The notes beneath the pieces are model-generated. The model made no database searches. It was given only the letters and a program-made list of their open reading frames with translations, and was not told where the DNA came from. The position numbers and the translations under genes are program-made. Below, piece by piece: positions 1-6,129 of a stretch of 6,129 nucleotides of DNA. The stretch spans positions 1 through 6,129 of the forward strand of contig NC_017460.1 in the NCBI RefSeq assembly GCF_000237865.1, in the 5' to 3' direction. Position 1 is the stretch's first letter, and each line of letters starts with the position of its first letter. The DNA comes from Haloquadratum walsbyi C23. GTDB taxonomy: Archaea; Halobacteriota; Halobacteria; Halobacteriales; Haloferacaceae.

Positions 1-106
1 CCTGATCAGCAACGCCGGACAACGATTAAGTATCATGCGGGAATGATACCAGATAGGCAAAGAAGTAACTCAAAACTTGAAAGCATCCTTTGGGAGAAGG
101 ACGCCC

Positions 107-133
107 CTGAAGGGACACCCCACGTCCCTTCAG
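107..133. other. Perfect 10-bp inverted repeat with a 7-nt spacer (CTGAAGGGAC-ACCCCAC-GTCCCTTCAG), either a hairpin or a dimeric-protein binding site
   Basis: The arms 107-116 and 124-133 are exact reverse complements. An inverted repeat this long is expected well under once by chance in 6 kb. It lies in the non-coding leader of the forward module. Confidence 0.6.
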
Positions 134-134
134 A

Positions 135-236
135 ATGAACCCACCTTTGGTCGGGCTGTTGGTTCAAGTGCTCTTTCTCTCGCTGACGACAAGTATCTTA
201 CTGAGAACGTCAGTCAGTCGAATACCAGTCGTATAA
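135..236 (+). CDS. Candidate 33-codon micro-ORF encoding a hydrophobic single-pass peptide (MNPPLVGLLVQVLFLSLTTSILLRTSVSRIPVV)
   Basis: ATG at 135 and TAA at 234-236, translated by hand. It has a 19-residue hydrophobic core. The ATG lies 2 nt after the 10-bp-stem inverted repeat at 107-133. It is below the ORF-track length cutoff, and I see no promoter or SD support. Confidence 0.2.
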   Translation: MNPPLVGLLVQVLFLSLTTSILLRTSVSRIPVV

Positions 237-272
237 CGTCAGATTGTACCGATAACGACCGTGTTAGTCGTC

Positions 273-380
273 TTGCGTCAACTTGCGCAAGGTTGCACGG
301 TTATGTGTCAACTTGCACAGTGCCGTGCAAAGTCGCACGAGTGAGTGCAAATCTGCGAGGGACGTGCGCATGAGTGCGAA
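273..380. repeat. Helically phased TTGCRC / GTGCAA hexamer array with a dyad centre near 321/322
   Basis: TGCR cores are at 274, 284, 294, 314, 326, 346, 354, 365 and 375, all close to multiples of about 10.1 bp. Degenerate copies are at 304 and 334. TTGCAC at 293 and 313 mirrors GTGCAA at 345 and 325, and both pairs are centred on 321.5. A 13-mer GTCAACTTGCRCA occurs at 277 and 307, 30 bp apart. The array ends on the ATG at 370. Confidence 0.75.
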
Positions 381-1263
381 CCCTCACAGAGACGCCGAGA
401 AACGTGCTCAATACGTCGCGAGGACGACCGACCTCGACCATCGCAAGGCACTCGCACTCGCCTATTCCGAGCAAGGGTGCAGTGAACGCGGGATTGCTGA
501 TAATATCGACTCGACCAAAGGCACCGTCTCAAATTATCTCGACGAGATCGGCGAGCGATACGGTCCCGAGACGGTCGTCGCGACCGGCATCGCCGAGAAA
601 GAGGACCTGACGCCGGTCGAAGAGCAACCGACGAAAGGACCGCTGGAGACCATCGACGCCGGTCGTAAAGTCGTCCTTGAAGGAGAGAGTCGAGGACCGC
701 ACACTGTTGAACGATACTTCCGCACATGGGTGCGAGACGGTCGGATTCATCGAGATGCAAAACTCGCACTCTCACTACATGATCACGGCGACGGGGACAC
801 ACGAGACCGTCTCAGTAATCTCGAATGGGACGCACACCACTGCACATACGACCCTGATTATACTTTTGTGAGTGCTGGCGAGAGTCGCGGCTGTTGGACC
901 TTCGATACTGACCCCGTGACTCTCAATGCCATTCGTGAGGTCGTGCATGTCCCGCCTCTCGATACGACGCCTCTTGTCGCCGAGACTCTCCCTCGTCGTG
1001 AGGACCTCGACCCATTCGAGTGCATTAATCCTGATTGCTCAGTCAACGAGGCACACTCAGGTCTCGACCTTCGTGCCTATCCGAGTCTCGGAGGTCCCGC
1101 AATCGAAATTACCGAGATGACAGACTTCGAGACCGTCTCGCACGTCTGTCTTGAGTGCCGGTCGTTGTTTACACCCGTGCCGGTCGGCGTGCCTGATCAG
1201 GAGAACAACGGCGACGAGGACAACGAGGACGACGATAACGTGCTCGTGGAGGCAATGCAATGA
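370..1263 (+). CDS. Acidic DNA-binding protein (297 aa from ATG 370) with an N-terminal helix-turn-helix, a C-terminal Cys4 zinc-ribbon-like motif and a poly-acidic tail
   Basis: This is the long ORF 283-1263 of the track. I prefer ATG 370 because the TTG-283 extension is basic and translates the hexamer repeat array. The HTH is about nt 439-549 (HRKALALAYSEQGCSERGIADNIDSTKGTVSNYLDEI). Cys pairs are CINPDC (1021-1038) and CLEC (1147-1158). The tail is DQENNGDEDNEDDDN. The stop TGA 1261-1263 overlaps the next ATG (ATGA). Confidence 0.8.
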   Translation: MSANPHRDAEKRAQYVARTTDLDHRKALALAYSEQGCSERGIADNIDSTKGTVSNYLDEIGERYGPETVVATGIAEKEDLTPVEEQPTKGPLETIDAGRKVVLEGESRGPHTVERYFRTWVRDGRIHRDAKLALSLHDHGDGDTRDRLSNLEWDAHHCTYDPDYTFVSAGESRGCWTFDTDPVTLNAIREVVHVPPLDTTPLVAETLPRREDLDPFECINPDCSVNEAHSGLDLRAYPSLGGPAIEITEMTDFETVSHVCLECRSLFTPVPVGVPDQENNGDEDNEDDDNVLVEAMQ

Positions 1264-2963
1264 CCGTCGAGAATGAGGACGGCGACGAGATACGCCGCCT
1301 GATCAAGCCGCAAGACCACGAGTTTACCGCGAATTTCAATTATGATAACGGACTCGACGCATGGCTTGCCTGTGACTCGGTAGTGAAGGACCACAACGGC
1401 TCATACGAGACCGAGACCGACGCCCTCGGCGAAACATGGGACGTGACCCTGTACTATCAAGACTCGTCTATCTTGCCACCTCGTGACGGCACGACGCCGA
1501 ACGGCACCGAGATCGAGCACGAACAAATCCGTGAGTTTCGCATCCGTGTCGAGGCTCAGGACGAGCTCGGAGAAAAAAAGGCGAACTATCATATTCGTCC
1601 CCGCTGGCGTCGTATGCGCGTCGAGACTGACGAGGGAGACCAACACGAGTTATCAATCCCTCGTACTCTTGTGAACGAACACGACGCCATGAACGTCCGC
1701 GTCTCAGGGTCTAATATTGACTTTTGTGATTATGGCGACCTACTCATGTGTGCCGCGAGTGCCGTCGATGTGAGTGCACATCACTTCCGCGAGTCATACC
1801 GACACGAGACCAGCAACATTCAGGACGGCGCGAAATACGTGCGTGTCCACGAGGACGTATCTGGTCCCGTGCATGCTCGCACTGGTCCCTTAGTCTCACT
1901 TGCGCACGTATTGGAGAACGACCGTGAGGGCTATCGGAAACTCGTGCAAAACGACAGCAACGAGAGAGGGCGTCAGTTAGCCGGTTATTATCATACCTGT
2001 ACGCTCGGACCTCAGAGAGTCCGTGAGGTATTCCCTGATCATGTCTTGCCCGTCGAGTGCAAACACTACTACGCTCGCGAGGCGCACTCTCGACCTGACT
2101 CTGACCCACTCTCTCACCCGAAAGTAGAAGTCGCCTATCAGACAAGCCGGACTGACGACACACTGCATCTTACCGACGAGAATCTCGCCCAACTTGACGA
2201 GGAACTCACCGAATGGCTGTATGCTATCCTCGCCGACGCCGGTCTCGACCTGAGGGCGAATGAGAACGTCTATGTCGAGGACGAATATTTCTCAGTCGAG
2301 AACGCAACCACGACCGCATCCGTTGTCGACCTCGACCTTACCGAAGTCAGACACGAGCAAGAGTCGGTCGTCTACAAGCATCTTGCTGACGGCATGGCAC
2401 CCACTGATCAGGAATGTCTCAATGTGCTCGTCTCCGACGGTGGTGCCGTGAGTCCTCAGGACCTTGCCGAGTCCACAGGACGACACGAAGATACTGTTTA
2501 CAATTCCCTTGCGAGAATGAACGACCTCGTGACACACACCTACGGCGAGGTCTCATTGAAGTCCACATATACCAGTGAACTTGTCGCCGACGCACTTGAT
2601 CAGGCACAACAAGCCGTCGATAACGCCGCTAAAACTGCCGCTGATGCCGTCCACGCCAGTAAACGAGGTCTCGATAATGCCACGAGTGCCTTTGTTGCAT
2701 GGTGTGAACGATACGGCGTCAACTACAACGACAACGGCGACGGCATGATCATCGACCTCGGTCGCGTCGATAGTATCAAAGAAGTGCGTAATATCTTGCG
2801 TAGTGGCTTCGACCGCTGGTGCAAGATGAAACGAGACGCTATCACCTTCAAATCTGCAAAAGTCAAATGGGAACACGAGGACGACGGCAAAGACCTCAAT
2901 TACTTGCCGTCCTCTCCTACCGTCCGGTCTCACTCTCAACGAGCGTTTACTCTCCTCAAGTGA
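1260..2963 (+). CDS. Large acidic protein (567 aa) with an internal winged-helix DNA-binding domain. It is a candidate replication or initiator-type protein, and the function is unproven.
   Basis: It is an uninterrupted 1.7-kb ORF with an ATG start overlapping the upstream stop (ATGA at 1260-1263). A wHTH-like segment lies at nt 2412-2531 (ECLNVLVSDGGAVSPQDLAESTGRHEDTVYNSLARMNDLV), followed by an Ala/Gln-rich helical segment. Composition is acidic. I saw no Walker or HUH motifs I could trust. Confidence 0.85.
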   Translation: MTVENEDGDEIRRLIKPQDHEFTANFNYDNGLDAWLACDSVVKDHNGSYETETDALGETWDVTLYYQDSSILPPRDGTTPNGTEIEHEQIREFRIRVEAQDELGEKKANYHIRPRWRRMRVETDEGDQHELSIPRTLVNEHDAMNVRVSGSNIDFCDYGDLLMCAASAVDVSAHHFRESYRHETSNIQDGAKYVRVHEDVSGPVHARTGPLVSLAHVLENDREGYRKLVQNDSNERGRQLAGYYHTCTLGPQRVREVFPDHVLPVECKHYYAREAHSRPDSDPLSHPKVEVAYQTSRTDDTLHLTDENLAQLDEELTEWLYAILADAGLDLRANENVYVEDEYFSVENATTTASVVDLDLTEVRHEQESVVYKHLADGMAPTDQECLNVLVSDGGAVSPQDLAESTGRHEDTVYNSLARMNDLVTHTYGEVSLKSTYTSELVADALDQAQQAVDNAAKTAADAVHASKRGLDNATSAFVAWCERYGVNYNDNGDGMIIDLGRVDSIKEVRNILRSGFDRWCKMKRDAITFKSAKVKWEHEDDGKDLNYLPSSPTVRSHSQRAFTLLK

Positions 2964-2994
2964 TGCCGTCCTCGTGAGTGGCAACACTCTCGAC

Positions 2995-3006
2995 GACCCT
3001 CTTTTT
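2995..3006 (+). terminator. Oligo-T (T5) archaeal-type termination signal downstream of the 567-aa gene
   Basis: GACCCTC followed by TTTTT (3002-3006) lies 39 nt after the TGA at 2961-2963. A weak 7-bp stem (3008-3014 with 3036-3042) follows. Confidence 0.4.
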
Positions 3007-3257
3007 CGACCCTCACGCGACATCTGACCGCCTTCGAGGGTCCCCTTTCGTCGTGATCGGTGTGGTGCGCGTCGAGATCGGCGTCAGTGCTGGTTTGGAA
3101 TTTGGTGCGACTCACCGGACTCGCTGTTAGGGGTGTGCCTAAGGGCACAACATCAAAACACATACCGTAGTTTTGCTCGCGCAAAAATTTCTACACACAA
3201 TATCACTCGTGATGTTGTCTCGTTCGGAGCTCCAATTGAGAACGAGACTGCACACTC

Positions 3258-3279
3258 ACAGATTAGACAGATTATCTGT
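3258..3279. repeat. ACAGATTA x2 (period 9), the second copy forming the 6+1+6 palindrome ACAGAT-T-ATCTGT
   Basis: Copies are at 3258-3265 and 3267-3274, and the palindrome is at 3267-3279. A third ACAGATTA at 3532-3539 abuts the iteron block. Each element alone is short enough to occur by chance. Confidence 0.3.
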
Positions 3280-3365
3280 GGAGATACAGCACTATGGAGT
3301 GACTATTCTTTATATGTGTTTTTGCTACACAAACCATGACTGACGGCACTCGTGTAGCAATATCC

Positions 3366-3416
3366 TATTTAAAGAAGTGCCTCGGGAATCCCTGATTCGC
3401 GTGTCCGGCATATAAA
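3366..3416. promoter_or_regulatory. Two canonical TATA-like boxes in gene-free DNA (TATTTAAA at 3366-3373; TATAAA / TTTATA at 3411-3416), possibly promoters of an unannotated small RNA
   Basis: The sequences match the archaeal TATA consensus (TTTAWA-like) on one or both strands. No ORF of plausible composition lies downstream in either direction. Confidence 0.25.
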
Positions 3417-3473
3417 CGGGGGTGTGGGGTTAGGGTGTGATCGTGCCCAATCCCTCACGGTTTGTTAGATTCA

Positions 3474-3489
3474 ATGTGAGGATGTGAGG
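3474..3489. repeat. Tandem 8-mer ATGTGAGG x2
   Basis: Exact tandem copies lie at 3474-3481 and 3482-3489. CCTCAC at 3453-3458 is complementary to either GTGAGG, giving alternative 6-bp stems. Confidence 0.4.
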
Positions 3490-3538
3490 AGAGAAAAGAC
3501 GACAAATAGAGTTCTATTTCTGTCGATAGGTACAGATT

Positions 3539-3601
3539 AAACGTTTTCAAACGTTGATTATACGTTTAATTTTACACGGTCATTACACGGTTCTACACGG
3601 T
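3539..3601. repeat. Six consecutive 10-11-bp-phased direct repeats (iteron-like): 3x (A)ACGTT followed by 3x TACACGGT
   Basis: ACGTT occurs at 3541, 3551 and 3562. TACACGGT occurs at 3573, 3584 and 3594, giving spacings of 10, 11, 11, 11 and 10. The first half is AT-rich (GATTAAACGTTTTCAAACGTTGATTATACGTTTAATTTT). The repeats lie in non-coding DNA between convergent genes. Confidence 0.8.
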
Positions 3602-3625
3602 CACATGTCTGTGGCGCCTGCTCAC

Positions 3626-3637
3626 AAAACACAAAAA
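3626..3637 (-). terminator. Oligo-T termination signals (T5 and T4 on the minus strand) ending the reverse gene block
   Basis: Plus-strand A5 (3633-3637) and A4 (3626-3629) lie 8-19 nt beyond the TGA (3645-3647) of the 108-aa gene. Archaeal RNA polymerase terminates at oligo-T tracts. Confidence 0.5.
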
Positions 3638-3644
3638 TCAATCC

Positions 3645-3971
3645 TCAGAAAAATGAATCCACGCTGACGAATTGGTGCATGTATCCTCGGTCGCTGTGCC
3701 AGTCCTCGCTTAGTCTATCATCTACAGTATCGGCGTCGACTTGCTTGGGTGGTTGATTGTCTCCAAGATCGTCAAAAATGTATGTGCCCTCCTGCTCGAC
3801 GAGCTCCGAATGAGTTTCCTTATTAAGTCTAAATCTATCTTCCTCTTTTGCGAGACGTACCTCTGTGGGTGCACCATTGATCGTGCCGTCAGTGCCGAAT
3901 TTCTCCTGTGGTGTTCCGCCATACGATTCGATTAATTCTTTCTCAATTTCTGTGTGATCGAAGTCTGTCAT
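3645..3971 (-). CDS. Small acidic hypothetical protein (108 aa)
   Basis: The ORF has an ATG start, very acidic composition and the same orientation as the ATPase operon. Oligo-T runs follow immediately on the coding strand. No motif was recognised. Confidence 0.7.
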   Translation of the reverse strand: MTDFDHTEIEKELIESYGGTPQEKFGTDGTINGAPTEVRLAKEEDRFRLNKETHSELVEQEGTYIFDDLGDNQPPKQVDADTVDDRLSEDWHSDRGYMHQFVSVDSFF

Positions 3972-4117
3972 ATCTGAGTTTCGTGTGTGTGCGTGATTTG
4001 TAATCGATTCATCTGAGTTGCAGCTGCAATCGGGATCGGCGACGGGTGCCGGCGTGATCGTGCCGGCGGTGTGACCTTGAGCCGATTTCTCAGTAACCTC
4101 GCGTCTGTGTATAACAT
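3968..4117 (-). CDS. Candidate 49-codon basic ORF (MLYTDARLLRNRLKVTPPARSRRHPSPIPIAAATQMNRLQITHTHETQI), translationally coupled to the 108-aa gene
   Basis: Translated by hand, with ATG at 4117-4115. Its TGA (3970-3968) overlaps the ATG (3971-3969) of the 108-aa gene as ATGA. It starts 16 nt after the ATPase stop. It is basic and Pro/Arg-rich, unlike its acidic neighbours, so it may be non-coding structured DNA or RNA instead. Confidence 0.25.
   Translation of the reverse strand: MLYTDARLLRNRLKVTPPARSRRHPSPIPIAAATQMNRLQITHTHETQI
4035..4086. other. GC-rich structured island inside an AT-richer region, with nested complementary segments and a direct repeat GTGCCGGCG x2
   Basis: GTGCCGGCG occurs at 4046-4054 and 4060-4068. 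Each copy holds the palindrome GCCGGC, so the two copies can pair. The outer ATCGGC (4035-4040) is complementary to GCCGAT (4081-4086). The island lies between the ATPase stop and the 108-aa start and overlaps the candidate 49-codon ORF. Confidence 0.4.
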
Positions 4118-4133
4118 ATTATGTGGTTAGTGG

Positions 4134-4979
4134 TTAGTCGTCGGCAGTGGCTTCGGTGGTGTCGGTCGTATCCGGCATCTCTGTGTACTTGTCAACCCAT
4201 GATTGGGACATATCGACAACATCAGCAACCTCGTATGTGGAGAGTCCTTTTTCTCGTGCCCGTTGTGCATCTGATACTTTTTGCTCGTGTTCTACTTCTT
4301 CAGGGTCTTTTGTGGTCTCATCTTCAATATTGACAAGTTCGTTTGCATTGAACTCATCAGATGATAGTAGTGCATCTTTTTTCTTTGTGATTGCCTGAAA
4401 ATACGGGTCATCTAATGCGTCGAGATTCGGAAAGGCAACCCGTTGCACATCGTTGTATGATTCGGTTCGCACATCGCCTCTATCAAATGTTGATGTGACT
4501 TTGTACGGTCTGAAGTATCCTATCGGTCTCTCAAGACACCACAGACGATAATCAGCACTTCGGCGTAACCGCTTATCGGCATCACTCCAGTGGGGCAATG
4601 TGCAGATCGTAACAATCCGTTTCTTGCGCATCAATTGCCAACTTCTGCCTAAGTTCACATTCTCATTACTCATCGAGCGTCGTGCATCGCCGGCACCGGC
4701 ACCCGCGAGTTCATCGAGAACAATTACACTCGGTTGCTCCTTGCTAGGATGTTCCCGCCATCTCTCCAAATACTGTTCCCCACTCAGGGTGAAGTCTCTC
4801 GGTGACAATTGATAGTCAAATGCCTTAGAGACCGCCAAAGCGGTGGAGACGGCGGCTGTCGTTTTCCCGACGCCGGTGGCTGAGTTCTCTGAGTCGCAGA
4901 TAATACGAGCACCACCAGATCGGGGACCGAAAACCCCGTGCATCAAATCATCCCAAAAGTCGGTGTCTCTCAGATGCAT
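4134..4979 (-). CDS. P-loop NTPase (ASCE/AAA-like core) with an acidic linker and a C-terminal helix-turn-helix (281 aa)
   Basis: Walker A is SATGVGKTT (nt 4857-4883). Walker B is VIVLDE (nt 4710-4727). A hydrophobic strand ending in polar residues (RIVTICT) lies about 35 residues later, in a sensor-1-like position. The C-terminal HTH is SDAQRAREKGLSTYEVADVVDMSQSWVDKYT (nt 4182-4274). The ATG lies 2 nt after the upstream stop. Confidence 0.9.
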   Translation of the reverse strand: MHLRDTDFWDDLMHGVFGPRSGGARIICDSENSATGVGKTTAAVSTALAVSKAFDYQLSPRDFTLSGEQYLERWREHPSKEQPSVIVLDELAGAGAGDARRSMSNENVNLGRSWQLMRKKRIVTICTLPHWSDADKRLRRSADYRLWCLERPIGYFRPYKVTSTFDRGDVRTESYNDVQRVAFPNLDALDDPYFQAITKKKDALLSSDEFNANELVNIEDETTKDPEEVEHEQKVSDAQRAREKGLSTYEVADVVDMSQSWVDKYTEMPDTTDTTEATADD

Positions 4980-4981
4980 TA

Positions 4982-5653
4982 TTAGATTAAATCTGAGTAA
5001 TCAAACTCAGCAATCTCGCTGGTATCATCGGAGAGACCGACATCAAGCCCGATTTCTAGGAGCACATCATTTGCGATTTTAAACCCACTATCAAGCACAT
5101 CGACCGGCAGTGCTGAGAGTTCTGTTTCACCCAGTGGGTCGCCAGTGTGAGACGGTCGGTCAAATGGTGAATCCTCCCACTCCATCGCTATGCCGTCTCT
5201 ATTTGTTGGCTTGCGAATGTCGTTGTACTCATGCCACTCGCGAGCGACAACAATATCTTGTTGAATTAACTGGACAAGTCCGGTAATCTCAATTTGTCGT
5301 CGGGGCAATATCTCAGCGGGTTTGCTGAGTGTTGGCTCCTTCTCGATGTGTTCGTCTAGTGTGATGTTATAGACGTGCCTATCGTACCACACATCCTCGT
5401 GTTGAGATTGAAGAATTACGGGGCGAATATCCAGCAAGAATGAATCAAGAACGGCTTTCAGTTGGGTTATTGCTTGCACGTTGCCAACTTCGCCACTTTT
5501 GCGGGCTGATTCAACATCGGCACGAGTTTTGATGTACTGCGACCGATAGTTGAGAATTTCTTTCACCCGCTGGCGTTTCACATCGCCGTCGTCGTCATTG
5601 ATCGAAAGCCGATTATCGTCTATGCCGTCGGTGGTGTCATTCGTGCCCGACAT
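4982..5653 (-). CDS. Acidic hypothetical protein (223 aa), tightly coupled to the downstream ATPase
   Basis: ATG start. It has a disordered acidic N-terminus (DGIDDNRLSINDDDGD), a predicted long helical segment and an acidic/hydrophobic C-terminal tail (EIAEFDYSDLI). The TAA at 4984-4982 is separated by 2 nt from the ATPase ATG (4979). It has its own promoter-like motif 25 nt upstream. Confidence 0.85.
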   Translation of the reverse strand: MSGTNDTTDGIDDNRLSINDDDGDVKRQRVKEILNYRSQYIKTRADVESARKSGEVGNVQAITQLKAVLDSFLLDIRPVILQSQHEDVWYDRHVYNITLDEHIEKEPTLSKPAEILPRRQIEITGLVQLIQQDIVVAREWHEYNDIRKPTNRDGIAMEWEDSPFDRPSHTGDPLGETELSALPVDVLDSGFKIANDVLLEIGLDVGLSDDTSEIAEFDYSDLI

Positions 5654-5668
5654 ATCTATCAGATAATT

Positions 5669-5691
5669 GCGTATGCGTATGTATCCACCGA
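5669..5691 (-). promoter_or_regulatory. Second copy of the promoter-like 14-mer, in front of the 223-aa gene and lacking the palindrome
   Basis: TATGTATCCACCGA (5678-5691) matches TATGTATGCACCGA (6067-6080) at 13 of 14 positions. Both begin exactly 25 nt from their ATG (5653 and 6042). It is preceded by tandem GCGTAT GCGTAT (5669-5680). Confidence 0.55.
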
Positions 5692-6042
5692 TTAAATGAA
5701 CATGATTAGTTCATTGATGAAGATAATCAAAAGTGAAATCGTAATCACTACACCACCGACAAGACGGATATTGCGGTTTATGCTGTTTACATCCTCAAAT
5801 TGCTCACGGAATGGTTTGTTTGGATCAATGCTTGATTCTTGAATTTCATTGAGTTGTGTGAGTATCTGTTCGTGATCGGACTCTATCTTGTCGGTAACAT
5901 CGTCACCGTTCACGGACTCAAGCCCTTCGCGGACAAGTCGCCTCATACCTTCAGATTGTGAGATGTCATTACGGGCAACGTATGCATCAACATCGCGGGC
6001 AATATCTTCATCAAGTCGTGTTTGATACCGTTCGCGTGGCAT
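5692..6042 (-). CDS. Ribbon-helix-helix (CopG/Arc/MetJ-type) DNA-binding protein with a C-terminal transmembrane anchor (116 aa)
   Basis: The N-terminus ERYQTRLDEDIARDVDAYVARNDISQSEGMRRLVREGLE fits the strand, helix, loop, helix RHH pattern (nt about 5908-6042). An acidic linker follows. The C-terminus LVGGVVITISLLIIFINELIMFI is a hydrophobic helix (nt about 5695-5763) running to the last residue. Confidence 0.85.
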   Translation of the reverse strand: MPRERYQTRLDEDIARDVDAYVARNDISQSEGMRRLVREGLESVNGDDVTDKIESDHEQILTQLNEIQESSIDPNKPFREQFEDVNSINRNIRLVGGVVITISLLIIFINELIMFI

Positions 6043-6058
6043 ATCCGGATTATCTCAC

Positions 6059-6080
6059 TGCATACATATGTATGCACCGA
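6059..6080 (-). promoter_or_regulatory. Promoter-like element (BRE/TATA-like TCGGTGCATACATA on the minus strand) embedded in a perfect 18-bp palindrome. It is a candidate operator of the RHH gene.
   Basis: TGCATACATATGTATGCA (6059-6076) is its own reverse complement. The AT-rich heptamer ATACATA is centred 28 nt upstream of the ATG at 6042. That is the spacing expected for a leaderless haloarchaeal mRNA. Confidence 0.6.
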
Positions 6081-6129
6081 ATCGACAGATGACGTAAATA
6101 CTGACTGATCAATTCGATACCTGTCGAAA

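What the first reader, a model, noticed from the sequence alone, without database searches (positions are those of the whole stretch)
1..6129. The window behaves like an entire small circular, virus-related replicon
No credible ORF crosses either end. Every solid gene belongs to one of two blocks that converge on 2964-3644 and diverge across the window ends. If the ends were joined, 6043-6129 plus 1-369 would form a single 456-bp divergent control region. That region would hold the reverse-block promoter and palindrome, the 10-bp inverted repeat and the phased hexamer array. There is no integrase, tRNA target, transposase or recognisable capsid or spike gene. The element therefore looks autonomous but structurally incomplete as a virus. 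From memory, Haloquadratum walsbyi carries roughly 6-kb PL6-family plasmids with this forward/reverse layout. In those, one forward protein is shared with betapleolipoviruses and one reverse protein resembles the His1 halovirus AAA-ATPase, and related sequences occur in metaviromes. If that recollection applies, this is a plasmid sitting on the plasmid-virus boundary with every gene functionally cryptic.
Basis: partly seen in the sequence, partly recalled or inferred. Interest (0 to 1): 0.7.

Follow-up and report, generated by a model that had tools for sequence, protein, structure and literature searches.

The report
Known Haloquadratum plasmid pL6A, complete circle

Summary
All six main proteins are 100% identical to CCC41960-65 of Haloquadratum walsbyi C23 on a 6,129-bp contig. 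Length, GC (51.05%), absence of GGCC and three published coordinates all match plasmid PL6A/pL6A (FR746101).

Circularity is backed by relatives. One metagenome contig aligns in a single piece across the 6129|1 junction, and another runs 1.49 times round a 7,727-bp circle.

The layout is as described: F1-F2-F3 forward, R4-R7 reverse, and no integrase, tRNA, transposase or capsid gene.

"Every gene cryptic" is out of date. F3 is a DUF7845 "Rep-Arvir" rolling-circle initiator, characterised in virus SNJ2 in 2026. It keeps every residue tested there, and the matching origin, with nick hairpin GTGCC-TAAG-GGCAC, lies at 3135-3148.

The R6 ATPase links to spindle-shaped haloviruses. A 2025 preprint proposes that PL6 plasmids are virus satellites.

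Side observations I did not find in the papers read:
- The R4-R5-R6 module is shared with Halorubrum virus V_ICIS4.
- The "F1" ORF stays open but shows no protein-level constraint, and it overlies three covarying hairpins and a 20-bp palindrome array.

The parts
1..6129 (.). Complete circular plasmid pL6A (PL6A, FR746101) of Haloquadratum walsbyi C23, linearised as in the public record
   Evidence: Six proteins are 100% identical to CCC41960-65 on a 6,129-bp contig. GC is 51.05% and GGCC is absent. Published coordinates match.
22..52 (.). CIS I: conserved block that the literature says holds two overlapping, opposed haloarchaeal promoter motifs
   Evidence: Conserved in pLT53-7, pBAJ9-6 and L009. 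Described in PMC5974055 and PMC11431627.
61..73 (+). CIS II: AGAAGTAACTCA, a conserved block just upstream of the F1 ORF
   Evidence: Invariant or nearly so in 7 relatives.
77..373 (+). F1 ORF (98 aa, basic, TTG start). Its stop overlaps the F2 ATG (ATGA).
   Evidence: The frame is stop-free in 6 relatives, while the other two frames carry 3-10 stops each. Substitutions are spread evenly over codon positions, with dN/dS 0.6-1.25. No family match.
83..166 (.). Three consecutive hairpins (83-104, 107-133, 136-166).
   Evidence: The same architecture is the minimum-energy fold in 7/7 relatives, z -2.0 to -3.8. 14 of 26 pairs change on both sides, reached by 0/500 shuffles. The model also finds L007 and L012, which were not in its seed.
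273..372 (.). Array of about five 20-bp units built on TTGCAC-N6-GTGCAA. It resembles iterons or operators and abuts the F2 start.
   Evidence: Four sites lie in exact 20-bp phase, reached by 0/500 shuffles. Unit number varies from 1 to about 5 among relatives. Direct repeats are noted in the supplement of PMC11431627.
370..1263 (+). F2 (297 aa). The literature describes an N-terminal winged helix, a CxxC motif and an acidic tail. It occurs only in the PL6 family.
   Evidence: 100% identical to CCC41960. dN/dS 0.12-0.29. No Pfam, PHROG or NCBIfam match.
1260..2963 (+). F3 (567 aa): Rep-Arvir rolling-circle initiator. It has an N-terminal DUF7845 nuclease-type domain, a MarR-like winged helix and a C-terminal domain.
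   Evidence: PF25227 at E 9e-103. SNJ2 residues E25/D207/K281-H282-Y283-Y284/E303 align to E21/D189/K268-H269-Y270-Y271/E290. The full-length fold search hits only MarR winged helices. The N-domain model (pLDDT 91.5) hits the Inoviridae Rep_trans protein A0A345MNV4 at E 8e-5.
2972..2991 (+). Conserved motif 1 downstream of rep (TCGTGAGTGGCAACACTCTC). Equivalent to the SNJ2 motif 1 region, which is proposed there to act in transcription termination.
   Evidence: Present at +13/+14 after the rep stop in most PL6 relatives (+82 in L007), in SNJ2 and in HGPV-1; not found in HRPV-3. Described in PMC13107129.
3105..3162 (.). Predicted double-strand origin: a weak inverted repeat (about 3113-3125), then the conserved block TTAGGGGT-GTGCC-TAAG-GGCAC-AACATCAAAACAC. 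The nick hairpin is at 3135-3148 with its loop at 3140-3143.
   Evidence: It lies 172 nt after the F3 stop, against 185 nt in SNJ2. Betapleolipoviruses carry GTGGC-TAAG-GCCAC, a compensatory change. The SNJ2 hairpin is essential by mutagenesis (PMC13107129). This block is also the CRISPR-spacer target 3123-3158.
3258..3274 (+). Two direct ACAGATTA repeats, marking the point where PL6A/PL6B similarity breaks
   Evidence: PMC3119063.
3645..3971 (-). R7 (108 aa, acidic, ends in F). Function unknown.
   Evidence: 100% identical to CCC41962. dN/dS 0.10-0.20. No family or solved-structure match.
3968..4117 (-). Small 49-aa ORF between R6 and R7. The literature notes an extra CDS here in pL6A. Its coding status is uncertain.
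   Evidence: PMC11431627 section 3.3.2.
4134..4979 (-). R6 (281 aa): AAA+/P-loop ATPase with a C-terminal helix-turn-helix
   Evidence: 45.6% identical to V_ICIS4 CDS0001, 31-33% to spindle virus BLv25 ORF1, 27.5% to His1 gp16. Weak hits to PF00004 and phrog_5484.
4982..5653 (-). R5 (223 aa) with the invariant C-terminal FDYSDLI. Function unknown.
   Evidence: Alignment A7. A homologue is found in V_ICIS4 (hhalign 98%, E 2e-13).
5692..6042 (-). R4 (116 aa): ribbon-helix-helix (CopG-type) DNA-binding domain plus a C-terminal membrane anchor
   Evidence: PF01402 at E 5e-4. The protein was detected in membrane preparations (PMC3119063). V_ICIS4 CDS0061 has the same architecture (hhalign 93.5%).
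6059..6076 (.). Perfect 18-bp palindrome TGCATACATATGTATGCA over the expected TATA position of leaderless R4
   Evidence: R4-proximal inverted repeats are described in PMC5974055.

Best explanation
The window is the entire circular plasmid pL6A of Haloquadratum walsbyi C23.

Shown:
- Two operons diverge from a control region that spans the record's start point.
- The forward operon is F1-F2-F3.

Inferred from homology to the experimentally dissected SNJ2 system:
- The forward operon is the replication module.
- F3 is a Rep-Arvir (DUF7845) initiator.
- Its winged helix binds an inverted repeat about 150 nt downstream of its own gene.
- Tyr270 nicks the TAAG loop of the conserved hairpin at 3135-3148.
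- The plasmid then copies itself by the rolling-circle route through a single-stranded intermediate.

The reverse operon, R4-R5-R6-R7, is derived from viruses. It encodes a membrane-anchored ribbon-helix-helix protein, R5, an AAA+ ATPase with a helix-turn-helix, and R7. No capsid or integrase is encoded.

The role of the reverse module is not settled. My preferred reading, at about 40%, follows the 2025 preprint: it lets the plasmid be packaged and spread by a co-infecting spindle-shaped or related halovirus, as a satellite like pSSVx.

The confidence given below applies to the core statement only: identity, circularity and rolling-circle replication by F3.
For: Identity:
- The six proteins are 100% identical to CCC41960-65 (UniProt G0LNF4-9) on a 6,129-bp contig.
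- GC is 51.05% and GGCC is absent, against the published 51.1% and 'GGCC absent' (PMC3119063).
- The spacer target 3158-3123, the inverted repeat at 107 and the ACAGATTA repeats near 3.2 kb sit at the published coordinates.

Circularity:
- L009 aligns in one piece across 6129|1.
- L009, L010, L012, L013 and L017 are circular permutations with the same gene order.
- L015 is a 1.49-turn assembly of a circle.

Rolling circle:
- PF25227 at E 9e-103.
- All residues tested in RepSNJ2 are conserved in F3, and K268 and Y270 are invariant across 51 homologues.
- Motif 1 and the nick hairpin lie at the same distance from the rep stop as in SNJ2, with a compensatory stem change between clades.
- The fold search returns the same Inoviridae Rep_trans protein that the paper reports (PMC13107129).

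Virus-derived reverse module:
- R6 matches V_ICIS4, BLv25 and His1.
- R4-like and R5-like genes lie directly upstream of the V_ICIS4 ATPase.

Satellite reading:
- The PL6 ATPases nest among those of small circular elements related to spindle-shaped viruses (bioRxiv 10.1101/2025.02.15.638363).
- CRISPR spacers target the family, and its reads occur in <0.1 um filtrates (PMC5974055, PMC11431627).
Against: - No replication experiment has been done on any PL6 plasmid. The nick site, the strand nicked and the single-stranded intermediates are all inferred from SNJ2, whose Rep is only about 33% identical to F3.
- The inverted repeat upstream of the hairpin is weak in PL6A (4-5 bp), although it is clear in pBAJ9-6, L015 and L016.
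- Against the satellite reading: pPOLA-c1 reads were 34-fold depleted in an ultracentrifuged virus pellet, and no particles were seen in C23 supernatants (PMC11431627, PMC5974055).
- No helper virus of Haloquadratum carrying a His1-type capsid gene is known.
- The virion type of V_ICIS4 could not be assigned.
- An AAA+ ATPase followed by a helix-turn-helix is also the architecture of DnaA/Orc-type initiators, so R6 could act in replication rather than in packaging.
Confidence: 0.85

Rival explanations
1. pL6A is a purely vertical, cryptic multicopy plasmid. On this view the reverse module is a maintenance system. R4 (ribbon-helix-helix plus membrane anchor) binds plasmid DNA and tethers it to the membrane, and the R6 ATPase with R5 and R7 helps segregate or resolve copies. 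No virus is involved.
For: - R4 carries a CopG-type ribbon-helix-helix domain, the fold of ParG-type centromere binders (from my own knowledge), and a membrane anchor. The protein was found in membrane preparations, and the tethering idea is proposed in PMC3119063.
- Copy number is about 30 per genome, and two related plasmids coexist stably (PMC11431627).
- Reads are depleted in a virus pellet, and no particles are seen (PMC11431627, PMC5974055).
Against: - R6 is an AAA+-type ATPase whose only database relatives are in haloviruses and small virus-related circles. It does not resemble a ParA-type ATPase.
- The R4-R5-R6 block is shared with a 25-kb virus.
- CRISPR spacers from several genera target the family, and near-identical plasmids occur on different continents. 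Both imply horizontal spread, yet there are no conjugation genes (PMC11431627).
Confidence: 0.3
2. pL6A is the genome of a very small temperate virus whose structural proteins are too novel to recognise. R4, R5, R7 or F1 would be the candidates.
For: - Gene order is strongly conserved, with overlapping genes and a narrow size range of 5.8-7.7 kb (PMC11431627).
- Two or more modules are shared with viruses.
- Reads occur in Lake Tyrrell virus concentrates (PMC5974055).
Against: - No capsid, spike or His1-type major capsid protein is detectable.
- R4 is the only membrane protein, and R5 and R7 are acidic soluble proteins.
- No virus-like particles were found in C23 supernatants, and reads were 34-fold depleted in a virus pellet (PMC5974055, PMC11431627).
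Confidence: 0.08
3. pL6A is a defective remnant of a betapleolipovirus. It has lost its structural genes and survives as a plasmid on the viral replication module.
For: - The F3 Rep and its origin are shared with betapleolipoviruses, including motif 1 and the nick hairpin.
- As in those viruses, a gene upstream of the rep gene overlaps its start (PMC5974055).
Against: - Only F3 matches HRPV-3. No other PL6A protein does.
- In published trees the F3 proteins of the family form their own clade, separate from the viral ones (PMC5974055, PMC11431627).
- The reverse module comes from a different virus lineage, that of spindle-shaped viruses and V_ICIS4.
- The Rep also occurs with a quite different partner module in L016. 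This points to module shuffling rather than simple decay.
Confidence: 0.07

Closest known systems
pL6-family plasmids of Haloquadratum (pL6B, pBAJ9-6, pLT53-7, pLTMV-6 and 15 metagenomic members)
   Same: The window is the family's founding member. It shares the F1-F2-F3 / R4-R5-R6-R7 layout, CIS I and II, avoidance of GGCC, and 85% nucleotide identity over the first 3.2 kb. F3 is 97% identical to pL6B and 93% to pLT53-7.
   Different: Nothing at family level. pL6A has one extra small ORF between R6 and R7. It lacks the accessory genes seen in some members: the methyltransferase of pLT53-7 and the sulfatase-like gene of L015.
Betapleolipovirus replication module (RepSNJ2 / HRPV-3 ORF9 / HGPV-1 ORF14; Rep-Arvir family)
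   Same: A DUF7845 domain followed by a MarR-like winged helix; all residues tested in RepSNJ2 conserved; motif 1 and a TAAG-loop hairpin about 170-185 nt downstream of the rep gene.
   Different: pL6A has no spike protein, internal membrane protein or other pleolipovirus genes, and no integrase. The hairpin stem is GTGCC/GGCAC rather than GTGGC/GCCAC. The upstream three-hairpin element and the 20-bp array were not found in SNJ2, HRPV-3 or HGPV-1.
AAA+ ATPases of spindle-shaped haloviruses (His1 gp16, BLv25 ORF1) and of Halorubrum virus V_ICIS4
   Same: R6 is 27.5%, 31-33% and 45.6% identical to these. All have an ATPase domain followed by a helix-turn-helix. In V_ICIS4 the R4-like and R5-like genes directly precede the ATPase, as in pL6A.
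   Different: pL6A has no His1-type major capsid protein, whereas BLv25 carries one immediately after its ATPase. It also has no protein-primed polymerase.
Archaeal virus satellites: pSSVx/pSSVi of Saccharolobus, and the small circular elements related to spindle-shaped viruses proposed in 2025
   Same: A small circular replicon with its own replication gene, an ATPase of the helper-virus type and no complete structural module. The PL6 ATPases nest among those of the 2025 elements (bioRxiv 10.1101/2025.02.15.638363).
   Different: Packaging by a helper virus has not been shown for any PL6 plasmid. The Rep is of a virus type (Rep-Arvir), not one of the plasmid types listed for those elements.
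Bacterial Rep_trans rolling-circle plasmids (pT181/pC221 RepD)
   Same: A two-part origin, with a binding inverted repeat followed by a nicked hairpin loop, and a catalytic tyrosine with acidic metal ligands on a TBP-like fold (PMC13107129). The fold search hits an Inoviridae Rep_trans protein.
   Different: There is no detectable sequence similarity. The archaeal proteins carry a fused winged-helix domain. PDB searches gave no significant hit to the N-terminal domain.

Membership tests
Plasmid pL6A (FR746101) itself | Length 6,129 bp, 51.1% GC, no GGCC | tested here: met
   6,129 bp, 51.05% GC, 0 GGCC sites, against Table 1 of PMC3119063.
Plasmid pL6A (FR746101) itself | Encoded proteins identical to Hqrw_6001-6007 | tested here: met
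   F2, F3, R7, R6, R5 and R4 are each an exact match to CCC41960-65 / G0LNF4-9 on a 6,129-bp contig. The pL6B homologues are distinct: 97% identity, on a 6,056-bp contig.
Plasmid pL6A (FR746101) itself | Base-for-base identity to the public record | not testable with these tools
   FR746101 is not in the plasmid collection searched. Look-ups of contigs encoding the exact proteins returned nothing. Published coordinates do match.
pL6 plasmid family | Circular episome of about 5.8-7 kb without an integrase | tested here: met
   Circular permutations and a 1.49-turn contig occur among relatives. No integrase family was found.
pL6 plasmid family | Outward-facing F1-F2-F3 and R4-R5-R6-R7 modules in conserved order | tested here: met
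pL6 plasmid family | Conserved intergenic sequences CIS I and CIS II between R4 and F1 | tested here: met
Rep-Arvir rolling-circle initiators (DUF7845) | N-terminal PF25227 domain with the catalytic tyrosine in a K-H-Y-Y context and conserved acidic residues | tested here: met
   E 9e-103. K268-H269-Y270-Y271, E21, D189 and E290 align to the residues mutated in SNJ2.
Rep-Arvir rolling-circle initiators (DUF7845) | Central MarR-like winged helix with the D-G-G linker | tested here: met
   The fold search returns MarR-family repressors. D393-G394-G395 are conserved: D393 and G394 invariant and G395 nearly invariant.
Rep-Arvir rolling-circle initiators (DUF7845) | Cognate origin downstream of rep: an inverted repeat plus a conserved hairpin | tested here: met
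   The hairpin lies at 3135-3148, 172 nt after the stop, with motif 1 at +13. The upstream inverted repeat is weak in pL6A.
Rep-Arvir rolling-circle initiators (DUF7845) | Nicking activity and single-stranded replication intermediates | not testable with these tools
   Needs Southern blots or mutagenesis. Shown only for SNJ2 (PMC13107129).
Betapleolipovirus (as a virus) | Spike and internal membrane structural proteins and the conserved structural gene block | tested here: not met
   Only F3 matches HRPV-3. No structural family was found.
Spindle-shaped haloviruses (Halspiviridae and relatives) | Hydrophobic alpha-helical major capsid protein (His1 VP21 type) | tested here: not met
   VP21 and the BLv25 capsid protein match each other but not the window. 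No ORF with two membrane helices was noticed when reading the ORF lists by eye.
Virus satellite (pSSVx-like, or the 2025 spindle-virus-related circular elements) | Own replication gene plus part of a helper virus's morphogenetic module | tested here: met
   F3 Rep. The R6 ATPase is of the spindle-virus type.
Virus satellite (pSSVx-like, or the 2025 spindle-virus-related circular elements) | Encapsidation and spread that depend on a helper virus | not testable with these tools
   No helper is known. Published fractionation data argue against free particles at one site (PMC11431627).

The most novel reading that the evidence does not exclude
pL6A is a rolling-circle satellite assembled from two viral modules. 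One is a Rep-Arvir replication module whose double-strand origin is the TAAG hairpin at 3135-3148. The other is a three-gene R4-R5-R6 block shared with the 25-kb Halorubrum virus V_ICIS4, and it serves helper-dependent packaging. On this reading the published core gene 'F1' is not a protein gene in the usual sense. It would be a translated leader laid over DNA or RNA signals: three covarying hairpins, which could be the single-strand origin or a leader structure, and a 20-bp palindrome array that binds a plasmid protein. The annotated small CDS F3.1/F3.2 would then be by-products of origin conservation.
Probability: 0.25. Interest if true: 0.55.

Novelty: already known. Interest (0 to 1): 0.2.

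Why it matters
As a discovery it does not matter. The plasmid was sequenced in 2011, and its family was described in 2018 and 2024.

It is still a useful case for two reasons.

First, it sits on the plasmid-virus boundary in Haloquadratum walsbyi, which often dominates the community in salt-saturated brines and for which no isolated virus had been obtained until recently.

Second, the 2026 Rep-Arvir work lets a replication mechanism and an origin be assigned to the family for the first time, and that assignment can be tested directly.

The shared R4-R5-R6 block and the non-protein signals under 'F1' give concrete handles on an open question: is pL6 a plasmid, a satellite or a virus?

Tried and rejected
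- Exact-protein contig look-ups for R4, F3, R6 and F2 of the window found nothing. I could not recover a differently linearised copy of pL6A itself.
- A junction-spanning 28-mer and a CIS I/II pattern found nothing in the viral contig collection. R6 peptides found no relative there either.
- A scan of one genome per species with F3 found nothing. The C23 plasmids are evidently not in that set.
- Sequence searches of R6, F3 and the R7 profile against solved structures gave nothing usable.
- Fold searches against PDB gave only the MarR domain for full-length F3, and no significant hit for the DUF7845 domain (best E 6e-3, TM <= 0.2). I first read this as 'no known fold'. The viral library and PMC13107129 then showed the distant Rep_trans/TBP-like link.
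- A precomputed weak PDDEXK_16 label on an R7 homologue was not reproduced.
- R7 is not related to V_ICIS4 CDS0003. His1 gp18 is not R5-like, which also serves as a negative control for the profile comparison.
- The F2 N-terminal helix-turn-helix resembles the R6 C-terminal one only weakly (E 0.068). I dropped this lead.
- Rfam holds no family for any part of the window.
- RNAalifold on the plain MAFFT alignment gave a partly different long-range fold, because the hairpin arms were out of register. I therefore relied on per-sequence folds and on an alignment fitted to a covariance model, which leans towards the tested structure.
- The virion type of V_ICIS4 could not be determined.

Full report
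WHAT THE WINDOW IS

The window holds two forward ORFs of 297/326 and 567 aa and four reverse ORFs of 108, 281, 223 and 116 aa. A 98-aa forward ORF lies at 77-373. There is no tRNA.

Megablast against plasmids finds only two records, both Haloquadratum walsbyi: pLT53-7 and pBAJ9-6. They are 85% identical over about nt 20-3250.

F2 and F3 are 100% identical to H. walsbyi proteins carried on a 6,129-bp contig. The next-best F3, at 97%, sits on a 6,056-bp contig. An exact look-up shows that all six proteins equal CCC41960-CCC41965 (UniProt G0LNF4-G0LNF9) of strain C23.

The literature gives PL6A as 6,129 bp with 51.1% GC and no GGCC, and PL6B as 6,056 bp (PMC3119063, PMC5974055). The window is 6,129 bp with 51.05% GC and no GGCC.

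Three published coordinates fit exactly:
- the CRISPR-spacer target 'PL6A/B nt 3158-3123';
- the inverted repeat starting at nt 107;
- the two ACAGATTA repeats near 3.2 kb.

The window is therefore plasmid pL6A (FR746101), linearised as in the public record. I could not align it to that record directly, because it is not in the collections on hand.

CHECKING THE OBSERVATION

In the circularised sequence only a 33-aa ORF crosses 6129|1. The two gene blocks converge on 2964-3644 and diverge across the ends. The arithmetic holds: 87 + 369 = 456 nt.

- A perfect 18-bp palindrome lies at 6059-6076, about 26 nt upstream of the R4 ATG.
- A perfect 10-bp inverted repeat lies at 107-116/124-133.
- Four TTGCAC-N6-GTGCAA-like sites lie at 273, 293, 313 and 333 in exact 20-bp phase. 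None of 500 shuffles gave a chain longer than one, and self-identity peaks at lags 20 and 40.

No integrase, transposase, capsid, spike or defence family is detected.

One caveat applies. The literature annotates F1 (77-373) inside the '456-bp control region'.

CIRCULARITY

The window cannot prove its own topology, but relatives do.

Contigs found through F2 and F3 homologues are linearised inside F3 or R5. They run F3(C-terminal part)-R7-R6-R5-R4-[about 470 nt]-F2-F3(N-terminal part).

L009 is about 75% identical to the window. It aligns as a single 2,483-bp piece from window 6075, through 6129|1, to 2407. The alignment is colinear at the junction.

L015 is an 11,488-bp contig whose first 3,761 bases equal its last 3,761 at a period of 7,727. 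It therefore represents 1.49 turns of a circular family member.

The published plasmid is a closed circle seen as a gel band (PMC3119063).

REPLICATION MODULE

F3 matches Pfam DUF7845 at E 9e-103. It is 32-46% identical to the conserved large protein of betapleolipoviruses, including HRPV-3 ORF9, HGPV-1 ORF14 and the SNJ2 homologue.

An AlphaFold model of the full protein (pLDDT 83) matches only MarR-type winged helices in the PDB. A model of residues 1-352 is confident (pLDDT 91.5, pTM 0.88) but has no significant PDB neighbour. Against predicted viral structures its second hit is A0A345MNV4, at E 8e-5.

A 2026 paper (PMC13107129) reports the same pattern for SNJ2 ORF19. It identifies A0A345MNV4 as an Inoviridae Rep_trans initiator. 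It shows by mutagenesis and single-stranded-DNA detection that DUF7845 proteins, named 'Rep-Arvir', initiate rolling-circle replication. That paper does not mention PL6 or Haloquadratum in its main text.

Aligning F3 with RepSNJ2 maps every tested residue:
- E25 to E21
- D207 to D189
- K281-H282-Y283-Y284 to K268-H269-Y270-Y271
- E303 to E290
- winged-helix D408-G409-G410 to D393-G394-G395

The same alignment reproduces the paper's remark that HGPV-1 and HRPV-3 have glycine at the E303 position. K268 and Y270 are invariant in my 51-sequence alignment.

The SNJ2 origin has three parts: a conserved motif just after the rep stop, an inverted repeat, and an essential hairpin 176-197 nt downstream. 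pL6A has the equivalents:
- motif 1 at 2972-2991;
- the block TTAGGGGT-GTGCC-TAAG-GGCAC-AACATCAAAACAC, with the hairpin at 3135-3148, 172 nt after the F3 stop.

Betapleolipoviruses carry GTGGC-TAAG-GCCAC there. The stem has therefore changed on both sides while the loop is kept.

I conclude, by inference from SNJ2, that pL6A replicates by the rolling-circle route, with F3 Tyr270 nicking at this hairpin. This replaces the 2011 suggestion of theta replication.

The conserved origin block coincides with the annotated F3.1/F3.2 stop/start junction and with the CRISPR target. Conservation of those small CDS may therefore reflect the origin rather than proteins.

REVERSE MODULE

R4 has a CopG-type ribbon-helix-helix domain and a C-terminal hydrophobic anchor. 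It was detected in membranes (PMC3119063).

R6 is a P-loop/AAA+-type ATPase with a C-terminal helix-turn-helix. Its viral relatives are V_ICIS4 CDS0001 (45.6%), spindle virus BLv25 ORF1 (31-33%) and His1 gp16 (27.5%). These links are already noted in the supplement of PMC11431627.

R5 and R7 match no family.

A 2025 preprint places the PL6 ATPases among those of small circular elements related to spindle-shaped viruses. It proposes that PL6 plasmids are satellites.

The window encodes no His1-type capsid protein. If it is a satellite, it is of the ATPase-only kind, like pSSVx.

Published evidence against free particles is the 34-fold depletion in a virus pellet and the absence of particles from C23 cultures (PMC11431627, PMC5974055).

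OBSERVATIONS I DID NOT FIND IN THE PAPERS I READ

(a) Shared module with V_ICIS4. The gene two positions upstream of the V_ICIS4 ATPase, CDS0061, is a ribbon-helix-helix protein with a C-terminal membrane segment. Its N-terminus matches the R4 profile (hhalign 93.5%, E 2e-7). Between CDS0061 and the ATPase lies an unannotated ORF, 24762..25290 + 1..17, which crosses the record's origin. It is an R5 homologue (hhalign 98%, E 2e-13). His1 gp18 served as a negative control. R4-R5-R6 is therefore a three-gene block shared with a 25-kb virus, not a single shared gene.

(b) F1 is kept open but is not constrained as a protein. Its substitutions are spread evenly over codon positions and dN/dS is 0.6-1.25. 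The values are 0.04-0.29 for F2, F3, R6 and R7. Yet exactly one frame is free of stops up to the ATGA overlap in six relatives.

(c) Hairpins under F1. The 5' half of F1 (83-166) folds into three hairpins. The same architecture is the minimum-energy fold in all seven relatives tested. 14 of 26 pairs change on both sides, which none of 500 shuffles reached, and the controls with slid partners collapse. That alignment was fitted to the structure, which favours it. A model built from seven sequences also finds L007 and L012, but nothing in betapleolipoviruses. The complementary strand folds 4-7 kcal/mol more stably in every case. This may merely reflect its G-richness.

(d) The 20-bp array. The units are palindromic, and their number varies from 1 to about 5 among relatives. 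The published supplement notes the direct repeats only as a cause of deletions.

A reading that fits (b) to (d) is this: F1 is a translated leader coupled to F2/F3, laid over a structured element and a protein-binding array. The structured element could be a single-strand origin or an RNA leader. This is inference.

VERDICT

The object is already known, so the finding itself scores low.

The mechanism can now be stated more firmly than in the PL6 papers: rolling-circle replication by a Rep-Arvir initiator at a defined origin. The lifestyle remains open. My rough weights are 40% satellite, 30% plain plasmid with a maintenance module, under 10% cryptic virus and under 10% defective pleolipovirus.

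Noticed in passing
L003 (Halorubrum virus V_ICIS4, OR762182) 24439-25290 + 1-951: An unannotated ORF, 24762..25290 + 1..17, crosses the record origin and is an R5 homologue (hhalign 98%, E 2e-13). The annotated CDS0062 in another frame looks spurious. Together with CDS0061 (ribbon-helix-helix plus membrane segment, R4-like) and CDS0001 (R6-like), it forms an R4-R5-R6 block syntenic with pL6A.
   Followed up: yes
window 77-373: The published core gene F1 shows no codon-position bias in its substitutions (dN/dS 0.6-1.25, against 0.04-0.29 for the neighbouring genes). Its frame is nevertheless the only stop-free one in six relatives.
   Followed up: yes
window 83-166: Three adjacent hairpins are conserved by compensatory changes across PL6 relatives and are absent from betapleolipoviruses. 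The complementary strand folds 4-7 kcal/mol more stably in all seven sequences. This could be a single-strand origin or a leader structure.
   Followed up: partly
window 273-372: The phased hexamers are palindromic 20-bp units (TTGCAC-N6-GTGCAA). Their copy number varies from 1 (L015) to 4-5 (window, L017). The array is kept, and is at its most regular, in L017, which lacks F2. F2 alone is therefore unlikely to be the binder.
   Followed up: partly
window 3123-3162: The predicted rolling-circle nick hairpin coincides with the annotated F3.1/F3.2 stop/start junction and with a published CRISPR-spacer target. The conserved 'first 19 aa of F3.2' may reflect origin DNA rather than a protein.
   Followed up: partly
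L015 (ENA ERZ24791100 contig, 11,488 bp): A 1.49-turn assembly of a 7,727-bp PL6-family circle. It carries a sulfatase-like accessory gene, an F2b/F2a-type replacement of F2, and two R5 paralogues in tandem.
   Followed up: partly
L016 (JGI 3300027784 contig, 6,397 bp): A 61%-identical F3 with the same downstream origin motifs sits beside a quite different reverse module: proteins of 378, 77 and 108 aa and no R6 homologue. The Rep-origin cassette evidently recombines with other partner modules.
   Followed up: no
window 5692-6042 (R4): R4 residues 1-71 match PHROG family phrog_24852 at E 3e-38, yet tblastn of R4 against 50,697 phage records finds nothing. That family probably derives from PL6-type sequences once predicted to be viral.
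   Followed up: no
window 370-540 and 4134-4300: The N-terminal helix-turn-helix of F2 and the C-terminal one of R6 resemble each other weakly (E 0.068 within pL6A; E 0.002-0.005 against relatives). This hints that both could read the same DNA sites.
   Followed up: partly
window 3572-3603: Three tandem copies of an 11-nt unit (TTACACGGTCA) lie just downstream of the R7 stop in the AT-rich convergent region. Function unknown.
   Followed up: no
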